From Phoronis australis (Eukaryota; Animalia; Phoronida): a stretch of DNA of 64,000 nt. Shown here one piece after another: positions 14,022-54,065 of this stretch. Made by a program: the position numbers and the translations under genes. The notes under the pieces are model-generated. The model did no database searches. It had not been told where the DNA came from and saw only the letters and a list, made by a program, of their open reading frames with translations. Position 1 is the first letter of the stretch, and the number at the start of each line of letters is the position of its first letter. The stretch is from the NCBI GenBank assembly GCA_002633005.1, contig NMRA01000165.1:719766-783765 (forward strand), written 5' to 3'.

Positions 14022-16022
14022 TTACTTGTCATTGTATCCGGTGGCTGAAAGGCCATCATGAAATAGTTCTTCCAGTGGGGTCCAAAATGGCTTGCCATTA
14101 CCTTCCCCACCGTCACAGGGCAGAGGTCCTTCCCAATCACACGGCTCCATGATCGGCATCATTGTTTTCCACCATCGCTGCACTTCCGGATCCGCCGCCA
14201 TCAATGACGCGTCCTTGTCAATATCCGTTCCTGAAGATATCCCGACAATTGTACTTCAGTAACCTAGATAGTTGAACACTGACGTAACTTCTGTCGCTCA
14301 GTTTCTTCTTGACTATTCATTGTTAGACTTTCATGTAAGAAAAGCTCTGACTATAAACTTTGCAAACGTTATATTTTAAGGGAAAATAAAAAATTACGAC
14401 AAATGTCTGTTTCAGTACTTTTTAGTTTCTCTCACAAAAGAATATCAAAACAAGGATGGCGCTATTTATCATTTATCCTATGATGTCATTCATACATCGA
14501 GTCACGGACTGTTTTTTATGCCTCCTTTGACTTTAGATCGCCATGGCGTATAAATTTGCATTCAAGTTATACGGCCTCCAAGCGAACAATACACATACCT
14601 ACGTATTCCATGTGTGAGAAGAGAAGGTTGTGTATCTTGTCGTAATAAATGGTGAAGTTGCGCCAATTGCATTTTCGGAGCGACTCCAAGACCTAAAAAG
14701 TGTAAACTACAACAAAAGCAGACCACGAAATCATTCTAACCGCGGCATCAAGATTGTTATTCTGATCTCAAACAAACAACATTAAAGCTGCCATGATAAA
14801 CTTCCTCATTTTCGTCAAAGAAACCTTTCCTTTATATCTCTTCTCATTATTGAACCAGTCTCAATTGTTCTTTGCAATTTCGGCACCTTGTTCTCCCGTA
14901 AAAAGATTTTCTAAAAGCCAGTGTCAAGCCTGCAGCATGGTCTCAAGAATTAACTTTTCACGGTTCTGAGTCCAAGTCCAGAAATTACCTCTGATTGAGG
15001 GACAAGATGACCAGGCCAATTTCATAATTCCGTAAACTCCGGTGCTCAAAATGAAACGTTGAGTTATTTTACGGAAGGCGGCTTCATAGCTACTAAAATC
15101 ATGTGTTGTCATTGTTCAGTTAAAATGCACGCAGACATCAGTGGAGCGTTTTAAACAATCGGGGCAGATACGCTCGCCAATAAGTTTTGTGCAGCGAGCA
15201 TGGTCTCAACTAAACTTTCAAACCCCAAAAACTACTTCTCATCTGAGCACGGGACAAAGTTCATGCCATGCCGTCTCGCTACAAGCAAGATTGTAGCCTA
15301 GGCGAGGTATCTTACCTTATCAAAGTAGCAAGTCAAGCCAATTCATAAAAACATGCAACTGAGTTACCGGCTGATTAAGCATGTAAACCTTTGTGCGCCC
15401 TCCTGCATTTCAGTGCTCCGACTGTTAAACTGGGCCCGGTCTCTAATCTTTGTACTCAAAACGAACTCGAAACTATTTTTGGCAATTTCTCTGCTCCTTT
15501 TGTGCGAACTTAAGATAATTGGTTATCAGACTGTGCTCGAATACATTATAGTTTATGCATAGGAGTTTCTAGTTCAAGTTTGCCCTTGAAGACCCTTATA
15601 TTCGTGCTACAAACTCGAGTAAAAACTCGAAACTTCGAGTTCAAACTCGAACTTATTGCTTTAATATTGGGTTTACAAACTGTGAACTAAGGGCAATAAA
15701 TAATCTCCGTAAGTTATTGTGTACTCGAGCATAGAATAATAGACACTTATCTTGAGTTCGCCCAAAAGTAGCGTAAAAAATGCCAAACCTAATTTCGAGT
15801 TCCATTTCGAGTAAAAAGATTGGAGACCGGGCCCTGGCCTAACTGGATTACAGCTACACTGCTAATGAAGTTGACCTATAGGCCATTTTGTGCAACTATC
15901 TTGCGGCTGTCACGCATACTTACACCAGGCCATACGGACTCGTGATATTTTTTATACATTTCGTAATTTTCTGGCGTCAAGCCACAAACGGAGCCATAAC
16001 GTTTACCCGGAACTTGGGCCAT
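14022..16022 (-). CDS. rhaM: L-rhamnose mutarotase (RhaM/YiiL/DUF718 family) homolog, 133 aa, three exons
   Basis: Exons 16022-15924, 14692-14599 and 14230-14022 have canonical GT-AG sites and translate to MAQVPGKRYGSVCGLTPENYEMYKKYHESVWPG|VLESLRKCNWRNFTIYYDKIHNLLFSHMEYVG|TDIDKDASLMAADPEVQRWWKTMMPIMEP...WTPLEELFHDG...NDK*. The family motifs Y-x3-H-x3-WP, N(F/Y)(T/S)I(Y/F), LF-x-x-x-EY, P-x-x-QRWW and LEE-x-FH are all present. Confidence 0.88.
15433..15833. mobile_element. Near-palindromic (foldback) PIF/Harbinger-type MITE in intron 1 of the rhaM-like gene
   Basis: The ends ggcccggtctc(t/c)aatcttt.tactc.aaa are inverted, and arm homology extends over 100 bp inward. A 3-bp CTG target duplication flanks it (15430-15432, 15834-15836), matching the CWG/TWA TSD of Harbinger elements. 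Confidence 0.85.
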
Positions 16023-33100: not shown

Positions 33101-36100
33101 TGTAAAAACCAGCTCCAATGACTTTCTGGTCACATCCAAGCAAATTGAGAAGGTATCCGGATCCTATAGAACGTCAATAGCAAATGCTGTTTATTATAAT
33201 GAAAGTAGAAAAGTGACCTCCACTTGAACTTCTTTCAAATTTTGTTGCTTACTTGGGCGATGTGGGCAATAAGTGAAGTCAAATTTTCTCCATCTTTAGA
33301 CATTTCACAGTGTTGGTAGTGATTGGAAGTATGATGGTTGTAAAGAAATTTGAAAATTCTGTATAGTGCCACTGCTTTAAATCTTCATCCAGGTTGTTTG
33401 TGAACTCTAGGTGGTGCTGAACAATATTGTCTTTAATTTTCTGGTGGCACCACTGATTTGAGTTGGTTGCCACTACACTGAAAATGCACTTCGGTGTATG
33501 CAATCTTGGCTGTGTGCCGTAGGCGCAATAATCTTACGAGTAAATCTTATGTGATGAGGTGCTTTACTTCTAGTGCGTGCAGGGCTTGGAATTTTCTCTT
33601 TTTAGAGGATTTCATCTTTTTGGTTTCAATTTCTTCTTTAATATTTGATTTCCAATTTCTTATTTTTTGCGTATCTTTTTTATCAATATTTTGAATTTAT
33701 TCATGCAAAACGTTCAATTAAATCTTACAACACAACAAAATATTTCTATCCCATGAGCCTATTTATTTGTGGAACGATACATCACTTGGAAAATTTTCCT
33801 CTTTTTTGTGATTAGTCATACCAAACCCTGATGGTGTTATCGCGCAAAGATCTTGTGTTATGGAATGCAGCCCCTATGATGGCTGTTTTTTCCACCTTTA
33901 TTACTTGCATGTCTGTGTTAAAACTTACCACCTTCCCTCTCTGTAGGACCTGTTGCGCACAATGCCGAGTAATGCATGCTTCTGCAACATCAACAGCACT
34001 GGTATCCCACGGTTACGGAGGGTACTGCGCGGCCTGGCCTGGCTCTACCCTGACATTGGTTACTGCCAGGGCACGGGAATGGTGAGTCCAGTGGTTTTGT
34101 TAATCAGTATATTCTTGTAGTTACCGATCAATGTCCATACAAGTTGTTAGACTGCTGTTTATAATTATTATGTAGTGTGATTTCTTTACTACCGACGTCA
34201 GTGCTCGTGATCACTCTTTCTAGGCAGGCTCAGCAATTCAGTCAATGTTGGTCACTAATACTAGTCTCCCCATATTTGATTCAGACTGTCTTTATCTTGC
34301 TACCAAATACCAACCATAATTTCTGTATATTTTACCCCTCTCCTCCAATCTCCTTGATGAGGCCCTCTTCTTGGCAATCCATGTTGACTTCTAATGACAG
34401 CTTGTCAACCTCCACGTGAACTGTGGGCTGCATTTCTCTATATACTTACCATAATCTCCTCAATTCCCGCCAGATTGCCGCCTCTCTCTTGCTGTTCCTG
34501 GAGGAAGAGGAGGCATTCTGGATGATGTGTACTATCATCGAAGATCTGCTTCCTGCCTCCTACTACTCCAGCACACTGATTGGTGTACAGGCCGACCAGA
34601 GAGTCCTGAGGCAGCTCATAGTCAGCTACTTGCCTGATACAGACCTGGTGTTGAAGGAGCACGATATTGGTACGTGAAGCATTACCTGAGTTGGTAAGGT
34701 TAGATTTTAAAGGTGTGTCTTTCCATACAGGCTCACTGGTAAGTGTTCAGGTTGACCAGAGAGTCCTGAGGCAGCTCAGTCAGCTGTTTGCCTGATACAG
34801 ACCTACTCATTTTGCTGAACATATCTGACCTCATGTTTAAGTCCATAGACATATTTTGCTGGAAGTAGAAATTTAAGAAATGGGAAATAGGCGGATCAGC
34901 AAAGAATTTTTTCTGGACATGCTACAAAATGCTTGTGACTGCATTCTTCAGTTGCTGCATCCCTTTCATAGTTTTGTCAATCTCTTGCAGAGCTGTCGCT
35001 GATCAGCCTTCACTGGTTCCTGACGTCCTACGCCAGCGTGGTTCACATGAAGGTGCTTTTGCGTATCTGGGACCTGCTCTTCTACGAAGGCTCCGTTGTG
35101 CTCTTCCAGGTCACTCTAGGCATGCTGAAGATGAAGGTGGGTGGACAGTGAAACCTTCTGTTTGTAGTCTTGGGTTGAGTTGACTTGACTATTACGTACC
35201 ACTTTGGTTGTTAACTTATGCGAAAACATCTCGAAATAGCCAGGATGAATACTCTGACTAATGGATGGCTAAGAGGGGAATGTTATCTTTATTAATTATT
35301 AGTCAGTTTGCTAAATTTTACTTATTCTGTGAAAATGAAATTAATAAAGAAAGTATTTCAAACCGGAAGTAGGACACTAGAAAAACGTTCAAATTAGGTC
35401 AAGTTTGGGGCATCATATCTGGCAAATGGCTTATTAGATTCAAATGAAACTTTCAACTACTGTGCTTAATGCACTGTTCTCAAAAACACTGTTGGGATTA
35501 TTGTTTTTAAAATGTTCCTCTTTTGCATGGAACGTGCGTTTATTGCCACTTTCATTTAAAATTTCTATAGATTTAATGTATTANTTAAAACTTACCACCT
35601 TCCCTCTCTGTAGGACCTGTTGCGCACAATGCCGAGTAATGCATGCTTCTGCAACATCAACAGCACTGGTATCCCACGGTTACGGAGGGTACTGCGCGGC
35701 CTGGCCTGGCTCTACCCTGACATTGGTTACTGCCAGGGCACGGGAATGGTGAGTCCAGTGGTTTTGTTAATCAGTATATTCTTGTAGTTACCGATCAATG
35801 TCCATACAAGTTGTTAGACTGCTGTTTATAATTATTATGTAGTGTGATTTCTTTACTACCGACGTCAGTGCTCGTGATCACTCTTTCTAGGCAGGCTCAG
35901 CAATTCAGTCAATGTTGGTCACTAATACTAGTCTCCCCATATTTGATTCAGACTGTCTTTATCTTGCTACCAAATACCAACCATAATTTCTGTATATTTT
36001 ACCCCTCTCCTCCAATCTCCTTGATGAGGCCCTCTTCTTGGCAATCCATGTTGACTTCTAATGACAGCTTGTCAACCTCCACGTGAACTGTGGGCTGCAT

Positions 36101-39100
36101 TTCTCTATATACTTACCATAATCTCCTTAATTCCCGCCAGATTGCCGCCTCTCTCTTGCTGTTCCTCGAGGAAGAGGAGGCGTTCTGGATGATGTGTACT
36201 ATCATCGAAGATCTGCTTCCTGCTTCCTACTACTCCAGCACACTGATTGGTGTACAGGCCGACCAGAGAGTCCTGAGGCAGCTCATAGTCAGCTACTTGC
36301 CTGATACAGACCTGGTGTTGAAGGAGCACGATATTGGTACGTGAAGCATTGTGTGAGTTGGTAAGGTTAGATTTTAAAGGTGTGTCTTTCAATACAGGCT
36401 CACTGGTAAGTGTTCAGGTTGACCAGAGAGTCCTGATGCAGGTCAGTCAGCTGTTTGTCTGATACAGATCTACTCACAGAGCACCACATTTGGCTCTCAG
36501 CAACATGCATTTCATTCATTTTCCTGAACATATCTGATATTATGTTGAAGTCCATAGACATATTTTGCTGGGAGTAGAAATTTAATAAATGGTAAATAGG
36601 CGGATCAGCAAAGAATTTTTTCTGGACATGCTACAAAATGCTTGTGACTGCATTCTTCAGTTGCTGCATTCCTTTCCTAGTTTTGTCAAACTCTTGCAGA
36701 ACTGTCGCTGATCAGCCTTCACTGGTTCCTGACGTCCTACGCCAGCGTGGTTCACATGAAGGTGCTTCTGCGTATCTGGGACCTGCTCTTCTACGAAGGC
36801 TCCGTTGTGCTCTTCCAGGTCACATTAGGCATGCTGAAGATGAAGGTGGGTGGACGGTGAAACTTCTTCTGTTTGTAGTCTTGGGTTGAGTTGTCTTGAC
36901 TATTACGTACCACTGTGGTTGTTAACTTATGTAAAAACGTCTCGAAATAGCCAGGATGAATACTCTTGACTTATGGATGGTTAAGAGGGGAATGTTATCT
37001 TTATTAATTAAGATGTTTTTAGTCAGTTTACTACATTTTACTTATCCTGTGAAAACGAAATTAATAAAGTGTTTCAAACCGGAAATAGGACTCTAGAAAA
37101 GCGTTCAAATTTGGTCAAGTTTGGGGCATCATATCTGGCTAATGGCTGATTAAATTCAAATGAAACTTTCAACTACTGTGTTGTTTTTAAAATGTTCCTC
37201 TTTTGCATGGAACATGCGTTTATTACCACTTTCATTTAAAATTTCTATAGATTTAACGTATTGGTTGTAATTTGGCTAAATGCTTTTGACTTGGCAATAA
37301 GATCCCACACAACTTCCTGCTCTAATAAGTGAGGGACATGTGTAGTTGGTGTGTGCAGTTTTTTAAGATTTCTGTAAATTATTTTAGACAAATGAGTGTT
37401 TTCTGACAAATATTTTGTATTCCTGTTTATTTCCCTATTGATAAAGTAATGTTTAAAACCTTATGTAACATTTTCAGGAGCCAGAGTTAATGCAGTTAGA
37501 CAACTCAGCCCAGATATTCAACTGTCTCTCTGATGCCCCTGGCGACGTACAGGACGTCGATGACTTGATCGAGGTATTAACAGTATTGTGTCTTTTGTGA
37601 GTTAAACATACACTGTCCACTTCCTTTATTGTTAAAAACTTCTTCAAAGGAATTTAATGGCGATCCAATCTTGTTAAATTTTATTCTTAGTTGATCCTCT
37701 TTCAACACGTCAAATGTTTTCAAAATAACCAGAACTTAATATGAAATTTTCAGATGATAGTTGACTTTCTTCCGGTTCACTACCAAAATAGCTGGTGCAG
37801 TTGAACGGCTTTGAACTTGCTTTTCTGGGAATTGTCAGTAAAAACGTAAATACATGCTGAGCTTAAATTTACAATTACATCTTCCTATTTTAGTGACGTT
37901 CTGAGATTGGTGAAACTTACTGTGTTTTAAACTGGTAGAACTAAAGGAAAGTCTTCATCATTTCCATTCTAGCCTTCCACGATTGTAGTATGTCCTGGCT
38001 GGAGCTATTGGATGTTATTGTTGACATTTTGAAGCATTTCAAACTTGTCTTATCCTAGTTTGAGGCCTCTAAAAAGCTTGCACAATCTCTTTAAATTGCA
38101 TGCTACAAACGATTCATCCCTTGCCTTTGTTCTTGTTCAGATTTCCTACCGAGTAGCCATGTCTCTCACAGACGTCATCATCGACACGCACCGACGAAAA
38201 CATCTGGCTTATCTCATGGCTGACCAGGGAACGCTGGTCAATCCGGAGTCGAGCAGGAACCTGCCAAAACAGGTAAAGTGAGAAGGGCTTTCTGCGGAAT
38301 TTATTTCTTCATGAAATTTGTCTGTCACAAAGGTGTTGGGTTTATGGTGTACATTGGGTTTATGGTGTACATTGGGTTTTGTTGCTATGTAATTAACTTA
38401 TCTTAAAGCCTGGCAGGGAAGCCAATCTTCTTGTGTTGTATGGACATTCTTTTTACAACATTCATTTATGAATAACTGTTCACAGTTCTTTTCTTTTGAT
38501 CTGTTCATTCTCAAGCACATTCTTTCAACAAACCCATTTCTTTATCCACAAGCCAGTCTAGTGACTCCATACAATTTGGTTCACACAAACACTGTACATC
38601 ATAGAATAGAGGAATAACACTACGGATGCAAGTATATTCATCGTTACAGTACTCCAATGTTTTACTTCATCTTCAGAGTTACAAAATATTGTAACTATGA
38701 ACATATTTTGTGTTTGTCATGTTATTCCTCATTGATATATGACCTAAGCGTAACATCATTAACAATGAAATAGCTGTCCCACTATGACAGTTGTTTAGAA
38801 TTAGCTTTTCGCTACCTTTGATCGTTTGTTATGCACTATTTAAAATGTTAGTTGTTGCCGTGAAATGAAAAATATAGCGACTGATTTGGGTAAGGTAGTG
38901 CAATTGAAGACTTGTTTTTCAATAGTGCTTGGACAAGAAAATTGCAGTCTGACTAACGTTATTTCATTTCTAAATGATGTTTTCATTTCTGAATCAGCAA
39001 TTGAACAAAAGACAGCTGAAGCGGTCCAAGTCTCTCATCTCACTACTGTTATGGGGTGTGGACGATGATGACGACTGGGGTAAAGCTAAGAATATCCGAC

Positions 39101-43387: not shown

Positions 43388-46300
43388 CACCTTGTCACTG
43401 TCTAGCTACTTACCAAACAAGTTAAAATAAGTAAGTTTTAGCACGTTATTGATGAGATGAGCTGAGCATCTGAGTTTTAAGTTATTATCCAAATGAAGGA
43501 CATTCCATGTCATTGTTCTCCAGTCTGGATTAAAAACTATCTGACTACTTACTTCACACTAGTTGTTTTTTGATAAATTATTCATTTGGTTTAAGCTTAT
43601 TTGGACTGCAGTTGGTTTCATGATTGTAAAATTGTTCAAAAACATTCTAAACAACTTTTATGAAAAATGGTGTGAAGACATCTCAAAAAGCACTTTTTTC
43701 CTTTTGTTGCCACACACACTATGTAAAAAATCCTCGTGTTCACAAATTGCCCCCCATCTTACCCCTCATGTCTGCGACTTTCTTCCAGTGAGCAGGTGCT
43801 TCACCTTTGGCTAGAGACCCTGTGCTCTTGCTGTGAGGTGGTAGAGAAGTGGTACCACCCCTGGGCCTACATGAGGAGTCCTGGTTGGGTACAGATCAAG
43901 TGTGAACTCAGGTACGTGCAGCTGGCCCGTGTGCTGTGGCGGTAGGGTAGCCGGTGACGGGCTTTGTTGGTGGGAATGATGGGGTGGGTATCCGTGAGGC
44001 AGCATTGACTTTTTTGTGGAACCCGTTAGCTCTTGCCCAGGTCTCTTGCCAGTGGCATGGTTTTGATTCTATAAAACGTGGTTTTGTGACAAAGACACGC
44101 ATGCTTAAGGCCATTTGTATGGAAATCAAAATTCTACTCTTAATATTGACCAATAGGTGTCACCGCTATCATCTCGCCTAGTGCCATTTCTTTGCAAAAG
44201 TCTACACCTGCCTTTAAGTTAACTGACAAATACATTACCTACTTTGATTGTGAAAAATTCTTAGCATTGCATAAACATGCAGTCTCTGTCTTCCTTTTAA
44301 GTTTTGAGTTGTGCTCTTTCTATTGTGTATATATGTTAGTTGTCTGATTGGTGTGTTCAGTTACTGTTGTTTGAATGTTGGTGCCTCTGTTGGTTAATTG
44401 GTGTTGACGTTATATTTTTATACTTTGACATCTCTGTATTAGTGATTATTTAGACCGCAATCCTAAGATGATGTTTTTTCCGAGACATCATATGACCGAC
44501 GAGTTAGTTTTGAGTTGCCTAAAGTTAGTACCTCACCAGTTTAGTGTTTTCACCAACTGTTGTGAAGGAGGGAGCTCACTGCTGTACTCTGAAGGACTCT
44601 AGCTTGCAATCAACACACACCTGGGCGCATGCTGTAGGTTCTTCTGGGTTTTGACTTGAATGTGTCTTTGTGTGCGTGTGTATATGAATGTCAGCCAGTC
44701 GGATATTGTGTTAAGTTTAGTTATGACATTGATGGTGGTGATGGCGACGATGATGACGACGACGACAACAATGATGATATTAAAACACTTCATGACTTGA
44801 ATCAATTTCCTGCGGCATCATTTTAGACCATTATGCAAGTTGTTTTTCAATCTGAACCTGAAGAGCGAGCTTCTAAACTCTGGCTCTAAGCAGCGCCATC
44901 TGCAGGACGCGTTCTTGGAGGATGTCTGCGACATGCTGGTCAAACACCAGCTGTTCAGTTGGGACATTATGGACAAGGGGAAATCCTTCAGCTACTGAAA
45001 GGTTTGCGTCACTGTCAGGAGTGCATGTGCCAAGATAGGACCCCAAATTTCAAATTTGTTCTCTCAATGGCAGTTGGGTTTGCACCTGTTTTGTTATCTA
45101 TTCTCTATGGGGAATGAGTTCGACCAGTTCAGTATCAAACTTCGCTGCAGTACTTAATCTAGTTTGAAAGCAGTAGGGTGCAAATCCTTTAACTGATAAT
45201 TGCTTTGAATGCCGGTTTTGGTTCTGAATGCTCAACCATGACATTTTTCTTACTTAGCTGATGTATGTCACAACTGTGATTCAGAAGTGAACATTGCACC
45301 CAACTCCCATGCCTATTTGTTAGAGCACGCTCCCATAACAAGTTTACTTCAATAACTGTGCAATTTCTACTTTCAGGGACACTTCTCTCTTTGTAGTGTA
45401 GGTTGCTACGTTTAACATTTTCTAACAGCTTATTAACTCTGTCTCCCAGTGGGTATGGATCATCAAATTCAAATGTTCTGCTGAAGTCCCGCATGTATGT
45501 TTTAATTAGCATCAGGCGAGCGTTTACACATCTTGGGTTTCTGTGATTTCAAAGGGCTGAAACGTAATGGAGACTCTGTGCAGTTGGACTAACAACGAAG
45601 TACCATCCATTCTCAGTTGTGTGAGCCTTTGTCGTTCAGTCACTGTCAAGTAACTCTTAGTTTTGACATGTTTTAAAGTTTAAAATGGTTCAGTAAAACA
45701 TCACTTGTGACTACACTTGTGATGTGCGAACCAGTCTTAGCATTAATTCAGGTCATTTCTTCGTTTCATGTGATGTCAGTTTTGTATGAAACGGTAAAGC
45801 CAGTTGGTCTGAATGTTGTGCGTGTTCATTTCTATAGTTAGTAGTTGACATAGGACCACCTATCAAGCTCATTCTAGGGACCATCTGGACAAAAATTAAA
45901 CTTACGTAATGTGACACTTGTGTGTCAGTTTACTCCACCTCTTCAAGATAGTGCAGCCTGCCTCTGATTTACTTGCCTTGATGACAACTTCAACTATCTG
46001 TGTGGACAGAAACTGTGTCGATTGGCTGTCTGAACACAGTTTGTTAGTGTCCGACTCGTGTGTTGTTAGCATCCACTGGCATAGTCACAGGAGGGCACAA
46101 TGGGTCCATGGTCCCACTGTTTATTGCAAAACAGCCCCCCTCCAGTCAAAACTCGGTATGATTTTGCATTTGTGTCACACTGTTCTTTGCAAAGTGCCCC
46201 CTGGTGGCCAACAATTTTGTGTTTGCCCTGTCCTGTTGAATACTTTTGGCTGTGCCAGTGTTGGCATCTGTCTGAAAGGAATTTCTCCACAGTTCGCTAC

Positions 46301-48526
46301 TTGAATGAGTGAGAATGTGCGTTTTATAAGAATCAGTGTGAGCGATACTTTTGTCGTTTCTGTGATCACGTTTGCATTAGAATCAAGCGGGATAGAATAA
46401 TTAAGTCTTGCTGGAAGAGAAATTCAACCAAGAAATCTGTGTCAAATATTAGTTTTGATGTGACATAAAGTTCATTCCGAATGTTACAGGAAAATATGGT
46501 TGTTGCCATTGCCTATATATGTATATAAATTGTGCGACTGCTTCAGTGATTAGTCTAAATGTTGGTCTCTGTCATTTCTTGAACTTTTTCTGTTAACTCA
46601 GTCCTGTGCTTTCAGGATTCTCAGTCAATTCTCGTTTCGTCTCTCCCTTGACTGGGAGTTGCCCAAAAAGGACGCGTCTCGGGCCCTTCAGGACTCTGTC
46701 AAAGACTTGCTGGTCAAGCACCATTTGTTCAGTTGGGACAGCTGAGGTTAATTGCCTGCTGTGTGCGTGTGCGTGTGTGTGTTTGTTGAGATATCTTCAT
46801 GGGCACCGTGATGCTGATTGTGGATTGGCGCGTTTGCTGAGCCGTCCGACACTGCTTATCAATTTCTGACTACTCATTTGCAGATTTAGTTGGTTTGCTG
46901 CGCACGTGTTCTGATGCTCGTTGAAACATTCATGCGCTTCTTCAGTTTGCGGAGATTGGACGTTCTCCATTTTGTTGTTGTTAACGGTGACTGATGTATG
47001 TAGAGTTTTAACGTAGAATGAAACTTTAAATTTCCAAAAAATTTCTGAGACTAATTTCAATTGATAATGGCTCACTCAAAAGATGGGTGTTCACATAACT
47101 TATCCGTTGAGAGTCGTCTAGTTTTAGGCAACAGTGGTGAAAAATGGTAATGTCTTTGTTGAATATTGGTGATTTCATGAAGTTTTAAGTGTGCAGTCTG
47201 AACGTTGCTCATTATATGTTTCAACATACTGATTATTTTCATCATTTTGACACAACTTTAAAATGTCTTGTCATTTTCTTTCTGTCACTAGTTAGAAATA
47301 GTGTAAAATCTTGCCAATTTCAGAAAAAAATATCGTAAAACTGACCTATTTTCTTTTTACAAAGGCTTTTAACATTGTTATGAATGCCCACAAATTTTAT
47401 AACCATTGTCTAGTGGTAGCTATGGCATACAACTTAAGAGCAATAAGGCATTTGTTTAGTGTAACTTGCTTTTTATAGAAAATAGAATTTCACTTGTTAG
47501 TCATACTGTGTCCTCAATTTGTGAGATTGTGCAGTCGCTTGGTGAATACCAGCTCTTGAATTTGACTCTTCTCACGGTTCAGTCAGGGGGTGTTTCGCAG
47601 ATGCAAGAAACACGCCTAAAACCAAATCACGCAAGAGCAGATAAAATCACAAAAGTGAAAGGCACGAGTAAGCTCGGACCTTGGGCTCCCTAGCAAAATG
47701 GCTGCCACTAATGTGATTGGTCGGTGAGGTTGGACGTTGAATCATGGGATAGAATTCACTGTCTCCATTCCATGTGCAAAGATTTCTCGTTGCAATCCCT
47801 TTGCGAGTGTCTGGGATCTACGGAACACAGCCTAGATGATAGATCGAAGACTAATGCTGAGAGGGCAGTGTTGGGACTTACACGTGTCGATGGACTTTTA
47901 TCATGGACACACTTAACACTTAATGCAGTATCATCATCATCTCACTGCTTTTCTATTGTTTGCTATTGTATGTGTTTCCACTGCCAACTTCCACTAACCA
48001 TAATAACGTTTATGTGTGTGTTCTATATTAACAGGGCAAACTTCATACTAACATACTTGATATACCAAATCTGAGTTAATCAATTGTTTATTGCACTAGT
48101 ATGTTTTGTGTACCGGTAACTACCTTGATGTTAACGATAATTTTTCACCTTGCTAAATGTCGTAATGTAACATACGGTTGGTAAATTTTAAATTGTTTTT
48201 GCAGAAAATCTGAAAAATTCATTCACAAAATTTGATTTTCTCTTGTTGTCTCATCATTCTCTATGGCCTTCATAAGTAGCATTTCATCAGCAAATACAGT
48301 TTTGCTTGGCAAGACTTCTGAGAATGCCTAAACATCGGCGTTCACTTTCATCTACGTTCTAAGCCTAAAACGTGTTGCCCTCTGTTGCAGAATCCTGTCA
48401 CAGTTCGCTTTCAACCTGTCGCAAGACTGGGAGATCCCCTCTATCAAGGACAAAACGAGCCAACCCCTGAAAGACGGAGTTCGTGACATGCTGGTTAAAC
48501 ATCATTTGTTTAGTTGGGATATATAA
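21102..48526 (+). CDS. SGSM3: Small G protein signaling modulator 3 (TBC/RabGAP + SH3 + RUN domains), about 801 aa using the distal terminal exon
   Basis: In-frame GT-AG exons: 21102-21171 (tentative start, [11 protein letters not shown]...), 24597-24766 ([14 protein letters not shown]), 31562-31628 ([13 protein letters not shown]), 32615-32745, 32958-33152 (GIPHSLR...KQIEK), 33947-34081 (DLLRT...YCQGTGM), 34474-34669, 34991-35136 (these three are duplicated at 35614-35748, 36141-36336 and 36700-36845), 37478-37573, 38141-38272, 38998-39186, 39911-40066 (SH3, [24 protein letters not shown]), 40564-40727 ([21 protein letters not shown]), 41238-41331 (RUN, FEHGLK), 41965-42035, 42635-42683, 43200-43285, 43789-43911 ([13 protein letters not shown]) and 48391-48526 ([13 protein letters not shown]). 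Confidence 0.95.
21204..21981. repeat. Three related ~100-130-bp segments (two direct, one inverted) sharing a GGCATAATT end and a small hairpin
   Basis: 21204-21314 and 21883-21981 share gtcgcactcc...accgtctc...acgcYggaagcttttcRgcRaattatgcc. 21758-21825 is the reverse-complement version (ggcataattagctgaaatgcttctgg...aagctccta...agagacg). Confidence 0.7.
21464..21529. repeat. Perfect 33-bp tandem duplication in SGSM3 intron 1
   Basis: actttttctttgagctcgtcttcgttcagttgc occurs twice in tandem. Confidence 0.9.
27174..27304. mobile_element. Small palindromic MITE-like element (TA-flanked, Tc1/mariner-like) in SGSM3 intron 2
   Basis: gtggtttctctaatagttcgtacac is inverted against gtgtacgaactattagagaaaatac. 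There is also an internal palindrome, aatagttcatacactagtgtacgaactatt. Confidence 0.6.
29674..29845. mobile_element. Harbinger-like MITE remnant in SGSM3 intron 2
   Basis: Inverted ends ggcccagtttacac ... gtgtaaacgggct, with TAA on the left flank. Confidence 0.5.
33918..37262 (+). repeat. 1.67-kb tandem duplication containing three SGSM3 TBC-domain exons, joined at an N gap (probably two haplotypes assembled in tandem)
   Basis: Copy 1 is 33918-35583, the N is at 35584 and copy 2 is 35585-37262. The first ~540 bp are identical; after that come SNPs and intronic indels. All coding differences I could see are synonymous. Confidence 0.92.
38336..38378. repeat. 18-bp tandem repeat (about 2.4 copies)
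   Basis: tgggtttatggtgtacat occurs twice plus a partial copy. Confidence 0.8.
42866..43119. mobile_element. Old dispersed repeat (~250 bp), copy 1, in an SGSM3 intron
   Basis: It shares the blocks ggggtgt...cagatgcaagaaac, gtgattgg..ggt.aggttggac, aattca.tgt and ctttgcgagtgt...cggaa, in the same order, with 47585-47832. Confidence 0.65.
43322..43386. repeat. (TATATG)n/(TA)n microsatellite
   Basis: Directly visible TA-dinucleotide run preceded by tatatg units. Confidence 0.95.
44827..44998 (+). CDS. SGSM3: SGSM3 alternative terminal exon A (proximal, most diverged)
   Basis: The acceptor catcattttag|A matches the phase-2 donor at 43911. It translates R|[56 protein letters not shown]. Confidence 0.75.
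46616..46745 (+). CDS. SGSM3: SGSM3 alternative terminal exon B (middle)
   Basis: Acceptor gtgctttcag|G, phase 2. It translates R|[42 protein letters not shown]. Confidence 0.85.
47585..47832. mobile_element. Old dispersed repeat (~250 bp), copy 2, between SGSM3 terminal exons B and C
   Basis: Homologous to 42866-43119. Its ends gggtgttt...gaacacagcc are weakly inverted. Confidence 0.65.
48391..48526 (+). CDS. SGSM3: SGSM3 terminal exon C (distal, closest to the canonical SGSM3 C-terminus)
   Basis: Acceptor tctgttgcag|A, phase 2. It translates R|[44 protein letters not shown]. Confidence 0.93.
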
Positions 48527-51041
48527 GCAATTGAGCTCCACAGCAGTGACCAATAAGGGTCTGAATTTACCGTACCATCACAAAGGGTCTTTGCTGTAAC
48601 TAGTTGCCTTCTTGGTTAAGATGTGGTTTTGCTAGAGAACTGCGCAGTGATTTAATCTTTGACTCTTCCTAACGCCTGCATTTTACAATCTCTGAATGTT
48701 AAAGTTTGATTGAAAAGATGAATCTCTGAAACGTTCAAAGAAAGTCATATGTAAATTAATGCTAGTGGTCGCTTGTAGCAGTCTTGTCAATATGGCGACT
48801 GTACAGTAGCCTACAGAGTCTACTGCTGTGTAATTAACTCTGCGCTGAGACCAAAGTAAGCAGTTGCCTCTCTGACCTCCGTGTGTCAGTCTGGCAGAGC
48901 TCTAATTTGGTTGGGAAAACTTTGTGCCGAAAGTCCCTGCAGAATTGAAGAAATGTGACACATTGTAGTTGAGTAATGTATTTTGTTTCCATAGAGAACG
49001 AGGATCTATACCATTTCCATTAAAGTGCGAATCCTTGGGTTTGTGTAGTTTTGAGGGGTAAAAGTGTACTGTGACTGAATAGCCCTATACTTTTTGTTAT
49101 TCATGGTGACGTAAGTTCTGTAATTGTCCAAAGTGCTCGTGACTGCTGAATCGCCTGCCTCGCAATCAGAATCTCAGTTCTTGCAATCTAGCATGCGGCA
49201 ATACGTAAGTGTGTGTGTGCACTGCCAACTTTGCACCTGTTTCAGCTTAACCGTGGCTGTTTCAAAAGCGTGGCAAATTTGAACTTTGGTGAAAGGGTCA
49301 CACCTCTACTCCAATCTGTTCATGACAAGTATCACTTTAAAATGTTGGCCGTTGTGAGCACTGTTAGATCCATGTCTGACTATCAACGAATCAAACGGTT
49401 CTTTTTGGACGTTGTAGGATCTGTAGAACCCGATTTCTGCACGGACATCAAACTGGTTCTCAAAATGCGTGTAGTGTGTAAAATGTGCACTGATGAATTA
49501 ATCACAGTCACTGAGATTATGTTGAATGATACAGCGCTAGGGGCTTGGTAGTTATTGTTGTCATTGTCACGGTTTGTTTTGTTCAAGTATTGTTGACAAA
49601 CACTGCGGACCATTGAGGTCTGCTGATGTGCCACATGAAAGGTCCAATGTCTTCGACAGACCGAGATAAGCTTACATGTGTATTTCGGTAGACTTATTAT
49701 TATCACTATTGTATAAAATGCAAAATTTTCATGGGACCCATTGTTGTTACCTGTATTCATTATGGAGAACTCACCTTTCACAGGAGGTACTATCTGAAAA
49801 GCAAATCAGTCTAATGGAATTGGGATCATTAAATTAATAGAATTTATTTTATTACCGTTCTAATGATAGTGTAGCTTGTCTATGATTCCTCAACACTGCC
49901 TTTGCTGCAGCTGTCTAAATTTAAAGTTTTTTTGAAAAGCATTAAATGTGAACTGATGTGATGTATAGTTGAATGAACGTTTCATATGAAAAAGCTGAAA
50001 AAGATTATTCATCAGCTAATTTAGGTAGGCATCTGGCTAAAAGGATATTCCACTAATTTAAAATCATGAATATTTATTTTTCAATTGATGTTTTTCACTT
50101 GAAATTTAATTGTTCATGTGTCGGTTTTGAATATTTGGTAAATATCTCTGATTGTGGAGAGTATGTCTTTGTATATAATAGTGTATGTATGTATGTATTG
50201 TAATTTCTTTTTCGTTAATAAGGTGCAATATTAAAACTTAATTGAGTGTTGTCACTTTGGTTAGTTCCTCATTGCTAGGAACTTAGTGTGTCTGGCATTT
50301 TCACTTTCGTTTATCAGGTTTGACTGAATCTAACATCGGAGTTTCATGTATACTTCACTCTTGTGGAAATTTGGTGATTAAAATGTCACGGTGATCAAAA
50401 TATTTATTTTCCATCACCTTAAATCCCCTCGTTGTACAAAAGAGGTCCTCCAACAGATGTCATGGTGGTTGAATCATTTATCAGAAAATCGTGTACATTG
50501 TAGGTCTTGTTACAATATTTTTGATTCATGAAAATAAAATTCTTGCTGTGTTATAACATTCCACAAATGAATCTTCATTTTAGTCGCTTTTTCTGCCTTT
50601 TAGATTAAGTTTTTACACAATTTTAGTGTTTGGTGGTATGGATCTGAACTTATACTAGATTTAAATTTTGATTTATCTTAATTTTTGTAGAATCTGGTTA
50701 AATTACGTCATCTATCTTGTGTCATTGGGAGATCCATTTTTAACATTGGAATTTCGTTGAGATTGTGTTCAGGAGTCTGGTCTAGCTGGGATCAATGTGC
50801 TGTGACGTTTTAAGCATGTCCACCAGGTGTCACAGTAGTCGACGTAGACTTCTGGTGTGACACTATTCATCTCTACTTAAAAATGTCATTAATCAAAGTT
50901 TGAGACAGTGAGATTGGTTAGTGCAAATTACACTGTAGGCTTTATATTATGATGTTCTGACAACTATTGTATTATAAAGAAATTGTGCTTAGGAACACAT
51001 TTAAATTCATTCCTCAAAGGTGACATTTTTGTAAATCATGC

Positions 51042-51095
51042 AATAAAGCATTTCATGTTTCAACTTCACTGATGTGTTCGTTTTTTCTGTTGCAT
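51042..51095 (+). terminator. Probable distal SGSM3 polyadenylation site (implies a ~2.5-kb 3'UTR after exon C)
   Basis: AATAAA at 51042 is followed by the GT/T-rich tgtgttcgttttttctgttg. A second AATAAA lies near 50533. Confidence 0.45.
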
Positions 51096-54065
51096 CTCAG
51101 CTTGGTTTAGAAAATTTATGATGGTGTAGCTATTATTATTGAGAAGAGAAATCGTTTGGCTTCGTCCTTTGCTTAACATGTGGGAAGCTTTTGGATATGA
51201 TAGTTTTGTCATTCTGGTCGTGGTAGCATTGATCGTAATTACAATTTTAATTGCTCCTTACCGCAATGAAAACTGTCGTCAAAAGAAAGGTTTTGAATAA
51301 GCGATAACGTGTTAAAATGGCAAAGGCAAAACATTTCGTAGAAACTGACTTCGTCGATCGATTGTTTTTGTAGGCCCCCTGAACGAGATCGGGGTATCGG
51401 TAGAGCAAATGGGCTAATATGAATCGAGTCATTTATTCAGTATAGAAGATTACAACCGGAGTTGTAAACCCGCGTTCCGTCCAAGAATCGAACTTTTGGT
51501 TCACTAACTACTCACAACTATAACCAATTGTTTTCGACCGGTTCCCTTGAGTGAGCATGGTCTTCAGACTAAGCTCTGCACGACCCGCTATGACTACAAG
51601 CCAACATGTGTAGCGCAGGGTCTCGGGCAATAACCATCTGTCAGTTTTTTCGAAACCCTGAAATCTGCATTAGGAAACCAGGCAGTTCAGTATTTTGTAG
51701 TTGGACAATGTCTGCATCAACGGAGAAAACCGGTGTCGCCGTCCACCCCTTGACATCACGAAATCTAAGCTCGTTGTGTTGCACAGAGCGATCACGTGGT
51801 AGATACGTTCTTAGTAACAATTTGAGACCAATGTCAAAACGGACATGATCTAAATCAAGCTTTTTGAGATGGAAGGGGGGGGTCATGGTTGCCTTGATTG
51901 ACGTTGTTGAATGACTGAGGAGGCGGATGAAACACGTACTCGTACGGTCCGTGCCTGATCGGACAGGTAGGTGACTTGCGATGATACGGGGAGTTGCTTT
52001 TTCGGATTAATTTCCTTTCGAAAGGGTTCAGTTCTTGGCTTGCATTTCTTCAAAGTGCCCATTTTTGTCACAGAAGTCTACAGAGTTGTTTTGTATTTTA
52101 TGGTGGTTGTGTTGTGAAGTAAGGATTTTGTAGATGAAAATTATATGGATATTGCTATTACCGACGAATTTGTAAAAACAACGATCTAAAAATGAAAAAA
52201 TATAAGAAGACTGATGCTTTTTAACGGTTTTATGTCGAATTTTGTCCATTTAGCATTTTGCACATAAAAATGATTACCATGGGAAACTCAGGCTAATCTA
52301 CGAAAGGATATTTCCATAGAATTTACAACTGAAATGGATCCCCATTGGGGTTTCGTCTTGCCCACTTTCTAATAAGGATGTACACAGTACTAATATCCCA
52401 GTGGTACACCCCCTCAAGATATCGTCGAATGAGTCACCACCACTGATGTTATCAAAAATATTTTTGACACGAAGAACACCGGAATCCGGGGGAGCTACAG
52501 AATGGTAAAACTTGGAGTGAAAATTGGCATCCCCAGCTCGGGCATATACCTCAGTTGCTACAGGGCGGCACACGAGATGGCTTTGATACTGAACTAACAA
52601 TTTCTGTAGGTGAATGTCTTGTAGCCGTATGCTCATAAGATGAAAGTCATGCGAGTTGTCAAAACGGTTGGGTGTTTTATACGAATAAAAGACAAAAGCG
52701 TTTTGGCTATAGCCTATCCGTTTTGGTGGAAACCAAACTTGGAAGTTCTCAAAGGTCTTCAATGTGTCCAGTCTACATTGTTTCTGTCTCAGTGTTTTAC
52801 CTTTTATGCCTCATTTTACTTGACACGGAACAGAACTCGTACGTCCAAATGTCTAAAATGGAGAAATCGGTTACTGGTGAAAAACTAATAAACAATCACT
52901 GCATTGTTTCTGTGTTTACGAAACACCTCTCCAAAGTGCACTCACGCAGCAGGTGAATAAGGTCGAAATGAAGTATTTTTGCTTGTGGTTAAAGATAAAC
53001 ACTTCAAAACTTCAATTGCTGTTCGTGCAACATTTTGTGACGGGTTTGTAGGGCTTAGTAACGTAAGAGTGGTTTTGGAAAGAAAGGAAGCGAAATTAGC
53101 TAATGTTGCAGAGTCATGGCAAGTAATGGAACGCATTGATGGCCTTTAAGTTACACTTGCTAGCATATTTCATCTGGGTGTGTCTTTCTGGTGGTGTACC
53201 AAAATCTCCAACTGGTCTGGTCAGACTGACGTCTCATGAGCGTTTTGTCCCGTGTTTTTTTTTAGCCTGAACCAGATGTCCGATCTGCCTTCTGGCCGTA
53301 CGGCATGTGGAATGCACGGACAGCATCCGTTAAACTTCACCTTTATGCGCGTATTTAGGGGCCTATATTCAAAACAATCCGTTTTTCAAATAATGCCGTG
53401 TTTCACTATCTTGGGCGCATACGCCTAAGTTTCACTCCTGTAATACTGGCGGCCACGATGCACACGTGTCCCAAGTTTCGTTTAGTGTTTGTCCATTTTT
53501 AATATTTTTCCTTTGACTCCAATTAGTCCCTGGAAAAACCCTGTGTGTAAAATTTTGAGTGTTAACGTGGCTCACGAGACCTCGAAGTGGCTCCATCCAA
53601 CAACAAAACTGGTTGTGACAGAATACCATACAAGTGTATAATTGCAGCAGTCTTCCTGTAATAGCAGACAATACAGGCAGTCAGGGCCACAGCACACAAA
53701 CGAAGAAACTAAAAAGATTTAACCCGTCAGGGGGAGTTAGGTTTGTAACCACCTTAGTACATTTGGCCACTGTGAAAGTAATCTACTAATTTATATTACA
53801 AGCAGCATGCAGCGCCCCCGGAGGCGTCGCTGCTCAGAAGTGTGACTTTTACAGTCCAGCTGTTTTCATTGAAAATGTATCTTTCCTGAACTAAAGGGTG
53901 CCTTGTCTTTTCATTACATACAAAAAGGTTCCCTATGACCAACTGCAAATATTCATAGAAGGATTTTAATATGATGTTTCGTTGATTGCAACCGACAACG
54001 TAACTGCACATCTTTTGTTGCGAACGATAGGTAAAATACTGGCTGTCCATGAATCTCTAGCCGGG

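What the first reader, a model, noticed from the sequence alone, without database searches (positions are those of the whole stretch)
44827..48526. SGSM3 ends in a cassette of three tandem, homologous, probably mutually exclusive terminal exons
Seen: after the phase-2 donor at 43911, three separate exons (44827-44998, 46616-46745, 48391-48526) each have an AG acceptor in the right phase, an open frame and their own stop. All encode versions of the same C-terminus (..D(M/L)LVKH(H/Q)LFSWD). Their DNA is strongly diverged and I see no homology in the flanking introns, yet the motif is kept, which points to old duplications under purifying selection rather than an assembly artefact. Known: this segment completes the RUN domain and the conserved tail of SGSM3, and tandem duplicated last exons are an established source of isoform diversity in invertebrates. 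Inference: three isoforms (about 813, 799 and 801 aa) have different RUN-terminal surfaces and could bind different small GTPases or partners. Exon A lacks the DWE(L/I)P motif and adds a DKGKSFSY tail. I know of no such cassette described for SGSM3.
Basis: partly seen in the sequence, partly recalled or inferred. Interest (0 to 1): 0.85.

Follow-up and report, generated by a model that had tools for sequence, protein, structure and literature searches.

The report
SGSM3 gene with swappable tail exons
A trafficking-regulator gene (SGSM3) carries three old copies of its last coding exon; RNA reads show the first copy being spliced in front of the last one, where its own stop codon ends the protein early, and annotated proteins of many molluscs and a lamp shell show the same three-way choice of tail, which likely tunes the protein's binding partners.

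Summary
The three exons are real: AG acceptors, phase 2, open frames, own stops, isoforms of 813/799/801 aa. Stranded RNA from three runs of one study shows 43911>48391 (22 reads), 43911>44827 (6) and 45001>48391 (21): exon A is an internal, stop-bearing cassette spliced onto C, which becomes 3' UTR, as in ITGA6 exon 25. No splicing to B was listed; a fourth acceptor at 45377 was (6 reads). The cassette is old: 18 of 50 named lophotrochozoan species have three annotated homologous tails and 11 have two. An annelid-like alternative exon has dN/dS 0.054, and one intronless contig shows the same cassette-onto-last-exon join. Sea cucumber, coelacanth and paddlefish swap only the second half of the tail. 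The exon starts at the last turn of the RUN fold and mostly encodes an extension beyond it, so altered GTPase binding is untested. It is a new member of a known class (C-terminal tandem exon substitution). I found no paper on it, and the scan had no earlier SGSM3 note.

The parts
43789..43911 (+). Last constant exon; encodes the end of the RUN core; phase-2 donor at 43911|43912
   Evidence: Pfam PF02759 positions 77-116 of 131, E 6e-12; RNA joints from 43911
44827..45001 (+). Exon A: internal cassette, stop TGA 44996-44998, weak donor (AAG|GTTTGC) 3 nt after the stop; isoform 813 aa with a 9-residue extension
   Evidence: 6 reads 43911>44827 and 21 reads 45001>48391; loose ends of 6 and 13 reads in run X4 match the upstream exon and exon C
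45377..45401 (+). Unreported fourth acceptor 'D': 8 non-homologous codons then TAG, followed at once by GT; would give a 764-aa protein without the tail. Its 3' end is not resolved
   Evidence: 6 reads 43911>45377 (4 in X2, 2 in X4); translation
46616..46746 (+). Exon B: open homologous tail, stop 46743-46745, candidate weak donor (GAG|GTTAAT) 1 nt after the stop; isoform 799 aa predicted, splicing not seen
   Evidence: Sequence; no joint or loose end at 46616 or 46746 reached the 3-read listing threshold in any of 3 runs; groups with Lingula isoform X5 at 97/87
48391..48526 (+). Exon C coding part: canonical tail with the PLKDG motif (801-aa isoform); serves as 3' UTR when A is included
   Evidence: 22 reads 43911>48391; 84% identical to Lingula X4
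48527..51050 (+). Shared 3' UTR; AATAAA at 50533 and 51042
   Evidence: Sense-strand depth 9-66 in the bins from 48573 to 50975, 1-3 in the bin 50976-51242; hexamers
45480..46946 (+). Candidate long-range stem, arms 45480-45516 and 46910-46946, that would loop out exon B; weak lead only
   Evidence: Longest inverted repeat in the region, -42.7 kcal/mol; equalled by 3 of 60 shuffles and 4 of 12 other blocks of the window

Best explanation
This SGSM3 gene ends in three anciently duplicated tail exons, of which the last (C) is the true terminal exon, A is a stop-bearing cassette that RNA reads show spliced in ahead of C, and B likely works the same way in tissues not sampled, so the gene likely makes up to three proteins that differ only in their last 42-56 residues. 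How it works: the donor at 43911 picks the acceptor of A, B or C. If A is picked, a weak donor 3 nt past its stop joins it to C (shown), so translation ends in A and C becomes UTR. The stop lies 3 nt from the last junction, so by the 50-55 nt rule (recalled; not tested here) the mRNA would escape nonsense-mediated decay, and all isoforms would share one 3' UTR and poly(A) site (inferred from depth). The swapped piece is the last turn of the final RUN helix, the F-x-L motif, a variable linker and a C-terminal helix ending in HHLFSW (predicted from a relative's model). The invariant residues likely keep this helix packed on the protein, while the linker and the start of the helix (PLKDG in C, lost in the others) would tune partner binding or localisation, probably by cell type (inferred).
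For: RNA joints 22 (direct to C), 6 and 21 (through A) in runs X2-X4, confirmed as loose ends in X4. No AATAAA before 50533. 18 of 50 named lophotrochozoan species have three annotated homologous tails, each with exactly one PLKDG-type, and 11 have two. Tandem copies with AG acceptors, canonical copy last, in genomic contigs such as L003, L015, L019, L029, L031, L047. Alternative exon dN/dS 0.054 over 10 distinct sequences from 14 loci; 0.067 against 0.036 for the canonical exon in 7 loci holding both. Intronless contig L025 reads alternative tail, stop, 16 nt, canonical tail. AG|GT within 3 nt of a stop triplet occurs at 47 of 1726 background positions (2.7%), yet follows A, B and D. Seven invariant columns in 25 tails.
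Against: B junctions were not listed in any of the three runs. All three RNA runs come from one study and about 18-19% of each was read; counts are small, and the 6 versus 21 imbalance across A is unexplained. 0 of 16 genomic alternative copies in relatives have AG|GT within 3 nt of the stop and no conserved donor shows in 11 aligned annelid-like loci; transcript-like contig L074 runs 58 nt past its alternative stop without reaching the canonical exon. So other lineages may use true alternative last exons. A is the most diverged tail (end branch 2.77); no close orthologue was found and its own dN/dS could not be computed. The functional step has no direct evidence; the extension helix has pLDDT 56-71 and matched no solved RUN structure.
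Confidence: 0.8

Rival explanations
1. Three true alternative last exons, each with its own poly(A) site. Could still hold for B here and for relatives.
For: B has not been seen spliced onward; variant poly(A) hexamers lie after A and B; relatives lack a donor right after the stop in 16 of 16 genomic copies; L074 continues past its stop in non-canonical sequence.
Against: 21 reads join 45001 to 48391; no AATAAA from 43900 to 50533; no drop of depth marking a transcript end after A or B.
Confidence: 0.1
2. The copies act mainly as a dosage switch: slow or retained splicing of the last intron and inclusion of A or D lower the amount of canonical SGSM3-C, the alternative tails being tolerated rather than specialised.
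For: The whole 43912-48390 region has sense-strand depth of 2-32 per bin while 43500-43766 in the previous intron has about 0; acceptor D gives a tail-less protein; A is diverging fast.
Against: Strong purifying selection on the alternative exon in relatives and type-specific tail sequences kept across bivalves and gastropods mean the alternative peptides matter as peptides.
Confidence: 0.06
3. In this species B (and perhaps A) is a decaying relic of an ancestral cassette.
For: No B junction listed; candidate stem that would loop B out; cephalopod records show a single tail, so loss happens.
Against: B is fully open, 64% identical to C with saturated third positions, has a good acceptor and a Lingula counterpart; A is spliced at a substantial share.
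Confidence: 0.04

Closest known systems
Human ITGA6 alpha6A/alpha6B (exon 25); listed as a C-terminal tandem-exon-duplication event in the supplement of PMC8373072; mechanism from passages of PMC5930856
   Same: An internal exon with its own stop is included or skipped; the downstream exon is coding when it is skipped and UTR when it is included; the two tails are homologous.
   Different: Two tails, not three; integrin cytoplasmic tails sharing little beyond GFFKR, against tails 50-67% identical here; ESRP1 control is known for ITGA6, no regulator here.
C-terminal tandem duplicated exon substitutions (77 of 236 human events; passages of PMC9741552), e.g. the three 3' exons of TPM1, fly Tm1 and worm lev-11, which arose independently
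   Same: Homologous, old, selected C-terminal swaps; repeated independent origin in the same gene family.
   Different: SGSM3 is absent from the human catalogue searched (PMC8373072 supplement, 0 hits; control genes found) and from PMC9741552 text and held supplement.
Drosophila PGRP-LC, CG42235 and Pip 3' variable regions (abstract and outline of PMC6191721)
   Same: Several 3' cassettes compete for one upstream donor.
   Different: There, competing RNA pairings are shown to drive the choice; here only one non-significant stem was found, and A splices on to a shared last exon.
[quoted passage not shown]
   Same: Same phyla; several optional exons at the C-terminus.
   Different: The passages seen do not describe those exons as homologous copies.
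RefSeq SGSM3 isoforms X1-X3 of oysters, mussels, clams, snails and Lingula
   Same: Same three-way tail choice at the same junction, already present as automatic annotation.
   Different: Annotation only; no description found in the papers searched.

Membership tests
SGSM3 (RUTBC3) orthologue | TBC, SH3 and RUN domains in that order; high full-length identity to SGSM3 | tested here: met
   About 80-83% identity over about 800 aa to named lophotrochozoan SGSM3; SH3 and RUN exons by Pfam; TBC exons by tblastn
Tandem-exon-duplication C-terminal substitution | Exons are homologous, tandem and in the same phase | tested here: met
Tandem-exon-duplication C-terminal substitution | At least two are used as alternative protein ends | tested here: met
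   RNA joints for A and C; no peptide evidence
Tandem-exon-duplication C-terminal substitution | Old and under purifying selection | tested here: met
   Relatives' isoforms; dN/dS 0.054 in annelid-like loci; not computed for the window's own A and B
Stop-bearing penultimate cassette exon (ITGA6 exon 25 type) | Exon with stop is spliced on to the terminal exon, which turns into UTR | tested here: met
   Exon A: 21 reads 45001>48391
Stop-bearing penultimate cassette exon (ITGA6 exon 25 type) | Same for exon B | tested here: inconclusive
   Candidate donor at 46746|46747; no reads listed
Alternative last exons with separate poly(A) sites | Each exon ends the transcript | tested here: not met
   A continues to C; depth ends only near 51 kb. 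Holds for A; B open
Strict mutually exclusive exon cluster | Exactly one exon of the cluster per mRNA | tested here: not met
   A and C occur in one mRNA; whether A and B exclude each other could not be seen
Docking-site/selector control (PGRP-LC, Dscam type) | Conserved competing RNA pairings | tested here: inconclusive
   One stem around B, reached by 3 of 60 shuffles and 4 of 12 other blocks; no close genome to test covariation
RUN domain GTPase-binding surface | Swapped segment covers the binding helices (first and eighth in Rab6IP1, per PMC3676764) | tested here: inconclusive
   Model aligns to 3cwz_B up to residue 167 (Z 9.8, rmsd 3.7, 125 aligned); the exon starts at 169-170 inside helix 160-172, so it borders the last helix but supplies only its last turn

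The most novel reading that the evidence does not exclude
The helix that follows the SGSM3 RUN domain is a swappable specificity module that animals duplicated at least twice independently (whole tail in lophotrochozoans, half tail in deuterostomes), kept for over 500 million years and lost again in tetrapods and arthropods; choosing among the copies switches which small GTPase or partner (Rap, Rab, merlin) SGSM3 engages, which makes these natural variants a ready map of an uncharacterised binding surface in a human intellectual-disability gene.
Probability: 0.3. Interest if true: 0.7.

Novelty: new member of a known kind. Interest (0 to 1): 0.5.

Why it matters
SGSM3 is poorly understood; loss of its RUN region is linked to intellectual disability in people, and its RUN domain is reported to bind RAP proteins and merlin (passages of PMC11725557). 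A conserved three-way swap of the segment just past RUN marks that segment as a likely regulatory surface and supplies natural variants to test. It also adds a cross-phylum, probably convergent case of C-terminal exon duplication, and explains chimeric gene models in several genomes. The mechanism class itself is known, which caps the surprise.

Tried and rejected
No whole genome was held, so no genome-wide or close-relative comparison. The look-up of sequencing runs listed no indexed RNA holder; three raw runs came by species label and one contig run (X1) covered none of 44600-47100. A homologue search with exon A alone gave 4 candidates, none at E<=0.01; weak evidence, since isoforms collapse into 90% clusters. 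The HMMER search of protein representatives with A never ran, so an A orthologue among fragments is untested. Pfam gave no match for any of the three tails. The full-length AlphaFold model of Lingula X4 had pLDDT under 50 over most of RUN and was not used. The tail tree (72 rows, 44 columns, 16 of 69 inner branches starred, bootstrap not settled) cannot say whether the three copies are orthologous across phyla; A sits on a long branch. RNA-pairing control: not significant (the first null was inflated by self-palindromes and was redone). Conserved donor after the stop in relatives: not found. Assembly artefact rejected: the copies are saturated at third positions and both A and C are spliced. 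Complex prediction was not used: no partner is established for the invertebrate protein. Paper searches without a description of this cassette: 3 papers, listings only; none of 40 listed held SGSM3; 0 papers with SGSM3 and 'mollus'; subscription journals and bioRxiv supplements are not covered, and the held supplement of PMC9741552 was only 15,271 characters.

Full report
Observation. The gene is an SGSM3 orthologue on the + strand, 21102 to about 51050, about 80-83% identical to named mollusc, nemertean, annelid and brachiopod proteins. After the phase-2 donor at 43911 three exons (A 44827, B 46616, C 48391) have AG acceptors, open frames and their own stops, giving 813, 799 and 801 aa (811/797/799 from a model begun two codons after the ATG). 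They share 21/42, 21/43 and 28/42 residues; third codon positions agree at 14-17 of 42-43 and second positions at 29-34; the introns show no direct-repeat homology. The last 44 coding nt are still 77-84% alike.

RNA. Three stranded raw runs of one study (about 18-19% of each read) and one contig run were laid on 43500-51500. Joints, as X2/X3/X4: 43911>48391, 7/2/13; 43911>44827, 2/0/4; 45001>48391, 4/1/16; 43911>45377, 4/0/2. A second lay on 44600-47100 showed, in X4, 6 reads running from 44827 into the upstream exon and 13 from 45001 into C. So A ends at a donor 3 nt past its stop and is joined to C. It is a cassette, not a terminal exon. Nothing was listed at B's ends (threshold 3 reads in a run). 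Depth falls off near 51 kb, by AATAAA at 51042; the only other AATAAA after 43900 is at 50533. The whole last-intron region carries sense reads (2-32 per bin) while the stretch 43500-43766 has about none, which suggests slow or incomplete splicing here. Caveats: small counts, one study, a filter that can drop reads on conserved exons, and an unexplained 6 versus 21 imbalance across A. All 18 constant donors begin GTA or GTG; those after A, B and the new acceptor D begin GTT. AG|GT within 3 nt of a stop triplet has a background of 47 of 1726, so B's candidate donor is suggestive, not shown.

Relatives. From two homologue searches and three cluster look-ups, tails were read after the constant QIKCELR motif. 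Of 50 named lophotrochozoan species with at least one clean tail, 18 have three distinct homologous tails (4 Mytilus, 3 oysters, Argopecten, Mercenaria, Mya, Dreissena, Haliotis asinina, Patella vulgata, Babylonia, Littorina, Pomacea, Biomphalaria glabrata, Lingula), 11 have two and 21 have one; many of the last have a single record. Records without the motif and chimeric models were dropped from this count. In each of the 18 exactly one tail has the PLKDG-type motif of C. Chimeric models of Ridgeia (three copies), Batillaria, Mya, Pomacea and Paralvinella put the canonical copy last. All 11 Octopus RefSeq isoforms share one tail, which lacks the motif. No arthropod record listed shows a second homologous tail. 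Apostichopus, Latimeria and Polyodon have two isoforms that differ only in the second half of the tail; none of 42 further bird/reptile, amphibian and rodent members does. Because the duplicated unit differs, the deuterostome case is probably independent (inference).

Genomic loci. One metagenome scan kept 74 loci (the best 80 of 129 confirmed stretches). Several host-derived contigs hold tandem copies with AG acceptors, alternative first and canonical last; L070 holds two alternative bivalve-like copies. For the annelid-like alternative exon, 10 distinct sequences from 14 loci give dS 0.68, dN 0.037, dN/dS 0.054; in 7 loci with both exons 0.067 against 0.036. L025 is intronless over the whole coding region and reads alternative tail, stop, 16 nt, canonical tail: the same join as A-to-C in another animal, though from one contig. 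Against generality: 0 of 16 genomic alternative copies have a donor within 3 nt of the stop, none is conserved in 11 aligned loci, and L074 runs 58 nt past its stop without reaching the canonical exon. The tail tree is weak (44 columns); C sits with canonical tails, B pairs with Lingula X5 (97/87), A has a 2.77 branch. Orthology of the copies across phyla is unresolved.

Structure. The last constant exon matches Pfam RUN 77-116 of 131; the tails match nothing. A model of a relative's RUN-plus-tail fragment (P0298, 212 aa, pLDDT 67) aligns to NESCA RUN (4giw_B, Z 11.9, rmsd 3.3, 132 aligned, model 1-166) and Rab6IP1 (3cwz_B, Z 9.8, rmsd 3.7, 125 aligned, model 16-167); Foldseek's best hit is RUSC2 with Rab35 (E 2.8e-4). 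The exon boundary falls at R169, in the last turn of helix 160-172; the exon then encodes a linker and helix 193-204 (pLDDT 56-71) outside any matched part. A review passage says Rab6 binds the first and eighth helices of the Rab6IP1 RUN domain (PMC3676764). The swapped segment therefore borders, but mostly lies beyond, that kind of surface. Seven columns are invariant in 25 tails; variation sits in the linker and the start of the final helix.

Mechanism. Shown: choice between C directly and A-then-C; one shared 3' end by depth; selection in relatives. Inferred: escape from decay (50-55 nt rule, recalled), use of B elsewhere, cell-type control, altered partner binding. A 37-nt stem around B (45480-45516 with 46910-46946, -42.7 kcal/mol) would fit B's silence but is equalled by 3 of 60 shuffles and 4 of 12 other blocks.

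Known or new. C-terminal tandem exon substitutions are a known class: 77 of 236 human events (PMC9741552, passages). ITGA6 exon 25 has the same stop-cassette logic (PMC5930856, passages; listed as a C-terminal event in the PMC8373072 supplement). SGSM3 is not in that supplement (controls found). PGRP-LC (PMC6191721, abstract and outline) and lophotrochozoan Mhc (PMC3912159, passages) are looser analogues. Searches found no description of the SGSM3 cassette; I saw listings and abstract starts only, and subscription journals are not covered. The isoforms do exist as automatic RefSeq annotation. Verdict: a real, ancient, apparently undescribed member of a known kind, with a corrected architecture. 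Interest 0.5.

Noticed in passing
window 33918-35582 and 35585-37262: Three SGSM3 TBC exons appear twice with identical protein on either side of the single N at 35584 (98.7% over 892 nt, 92.5% over 669 nt, 96.3% over 82 nt). Probably two haplotypes joined at a scaffold gap; not tested with reads.
   Followed up: partly
window 45377-45401: Fourth acceptor used in 6 reads, giving a tail-less 764-aa protein; TAG followed at once by GT could make it a 25-nt stop micro-exon, but at least one read runs 49 nt past the joint.
   Followed up: partly
window 43912-48390: The last-intron region is covered by sense RNA throughout while the preceding intron stretch is not: possibly a detained intron.
   Followed up: partly
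proteins P0147, P0230-P0243, P0132: Cephalopod SGSM3 records carry a single tail that lacks the canonical PLKDG motif and resembles an alternative gastropod tail: the canonical exon may have been lost.
   Followed up: partly
proteins P0308/P0116, P0045/P0046, P0354/P0355: Sea cucumber, coelacanth and paddlefish have an alternative homologous second half of the tail, not seen in the tetrapod records listed.
   Followed up: partly
proteins P0002, P0004, P0165, P0259, P0265, P0282: Public gene models that stitch tandem tail copies into one chimeric C-terminus: annotation errors caused by this cassette.
   Followed up: no
proteins P0153, P0131: Haliotis rubra X3 and Dreissena X1 tails leave the frame midway, while congeners or other models keep it: assembly errors or decaying copies.
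   Followed up: no
window 15432-15835 and 21251-21339/21734-21823: A 400-nt near-perfect palindrome and an 88-nt inverted repeat pair, likely small transposons.
   Followed up: no
window 47690-47757 and 49441-49473: Short dispersed repeats that attract reads from elsewhere, including opposite-strand joints in the 3' UTR.
   Followed up: no
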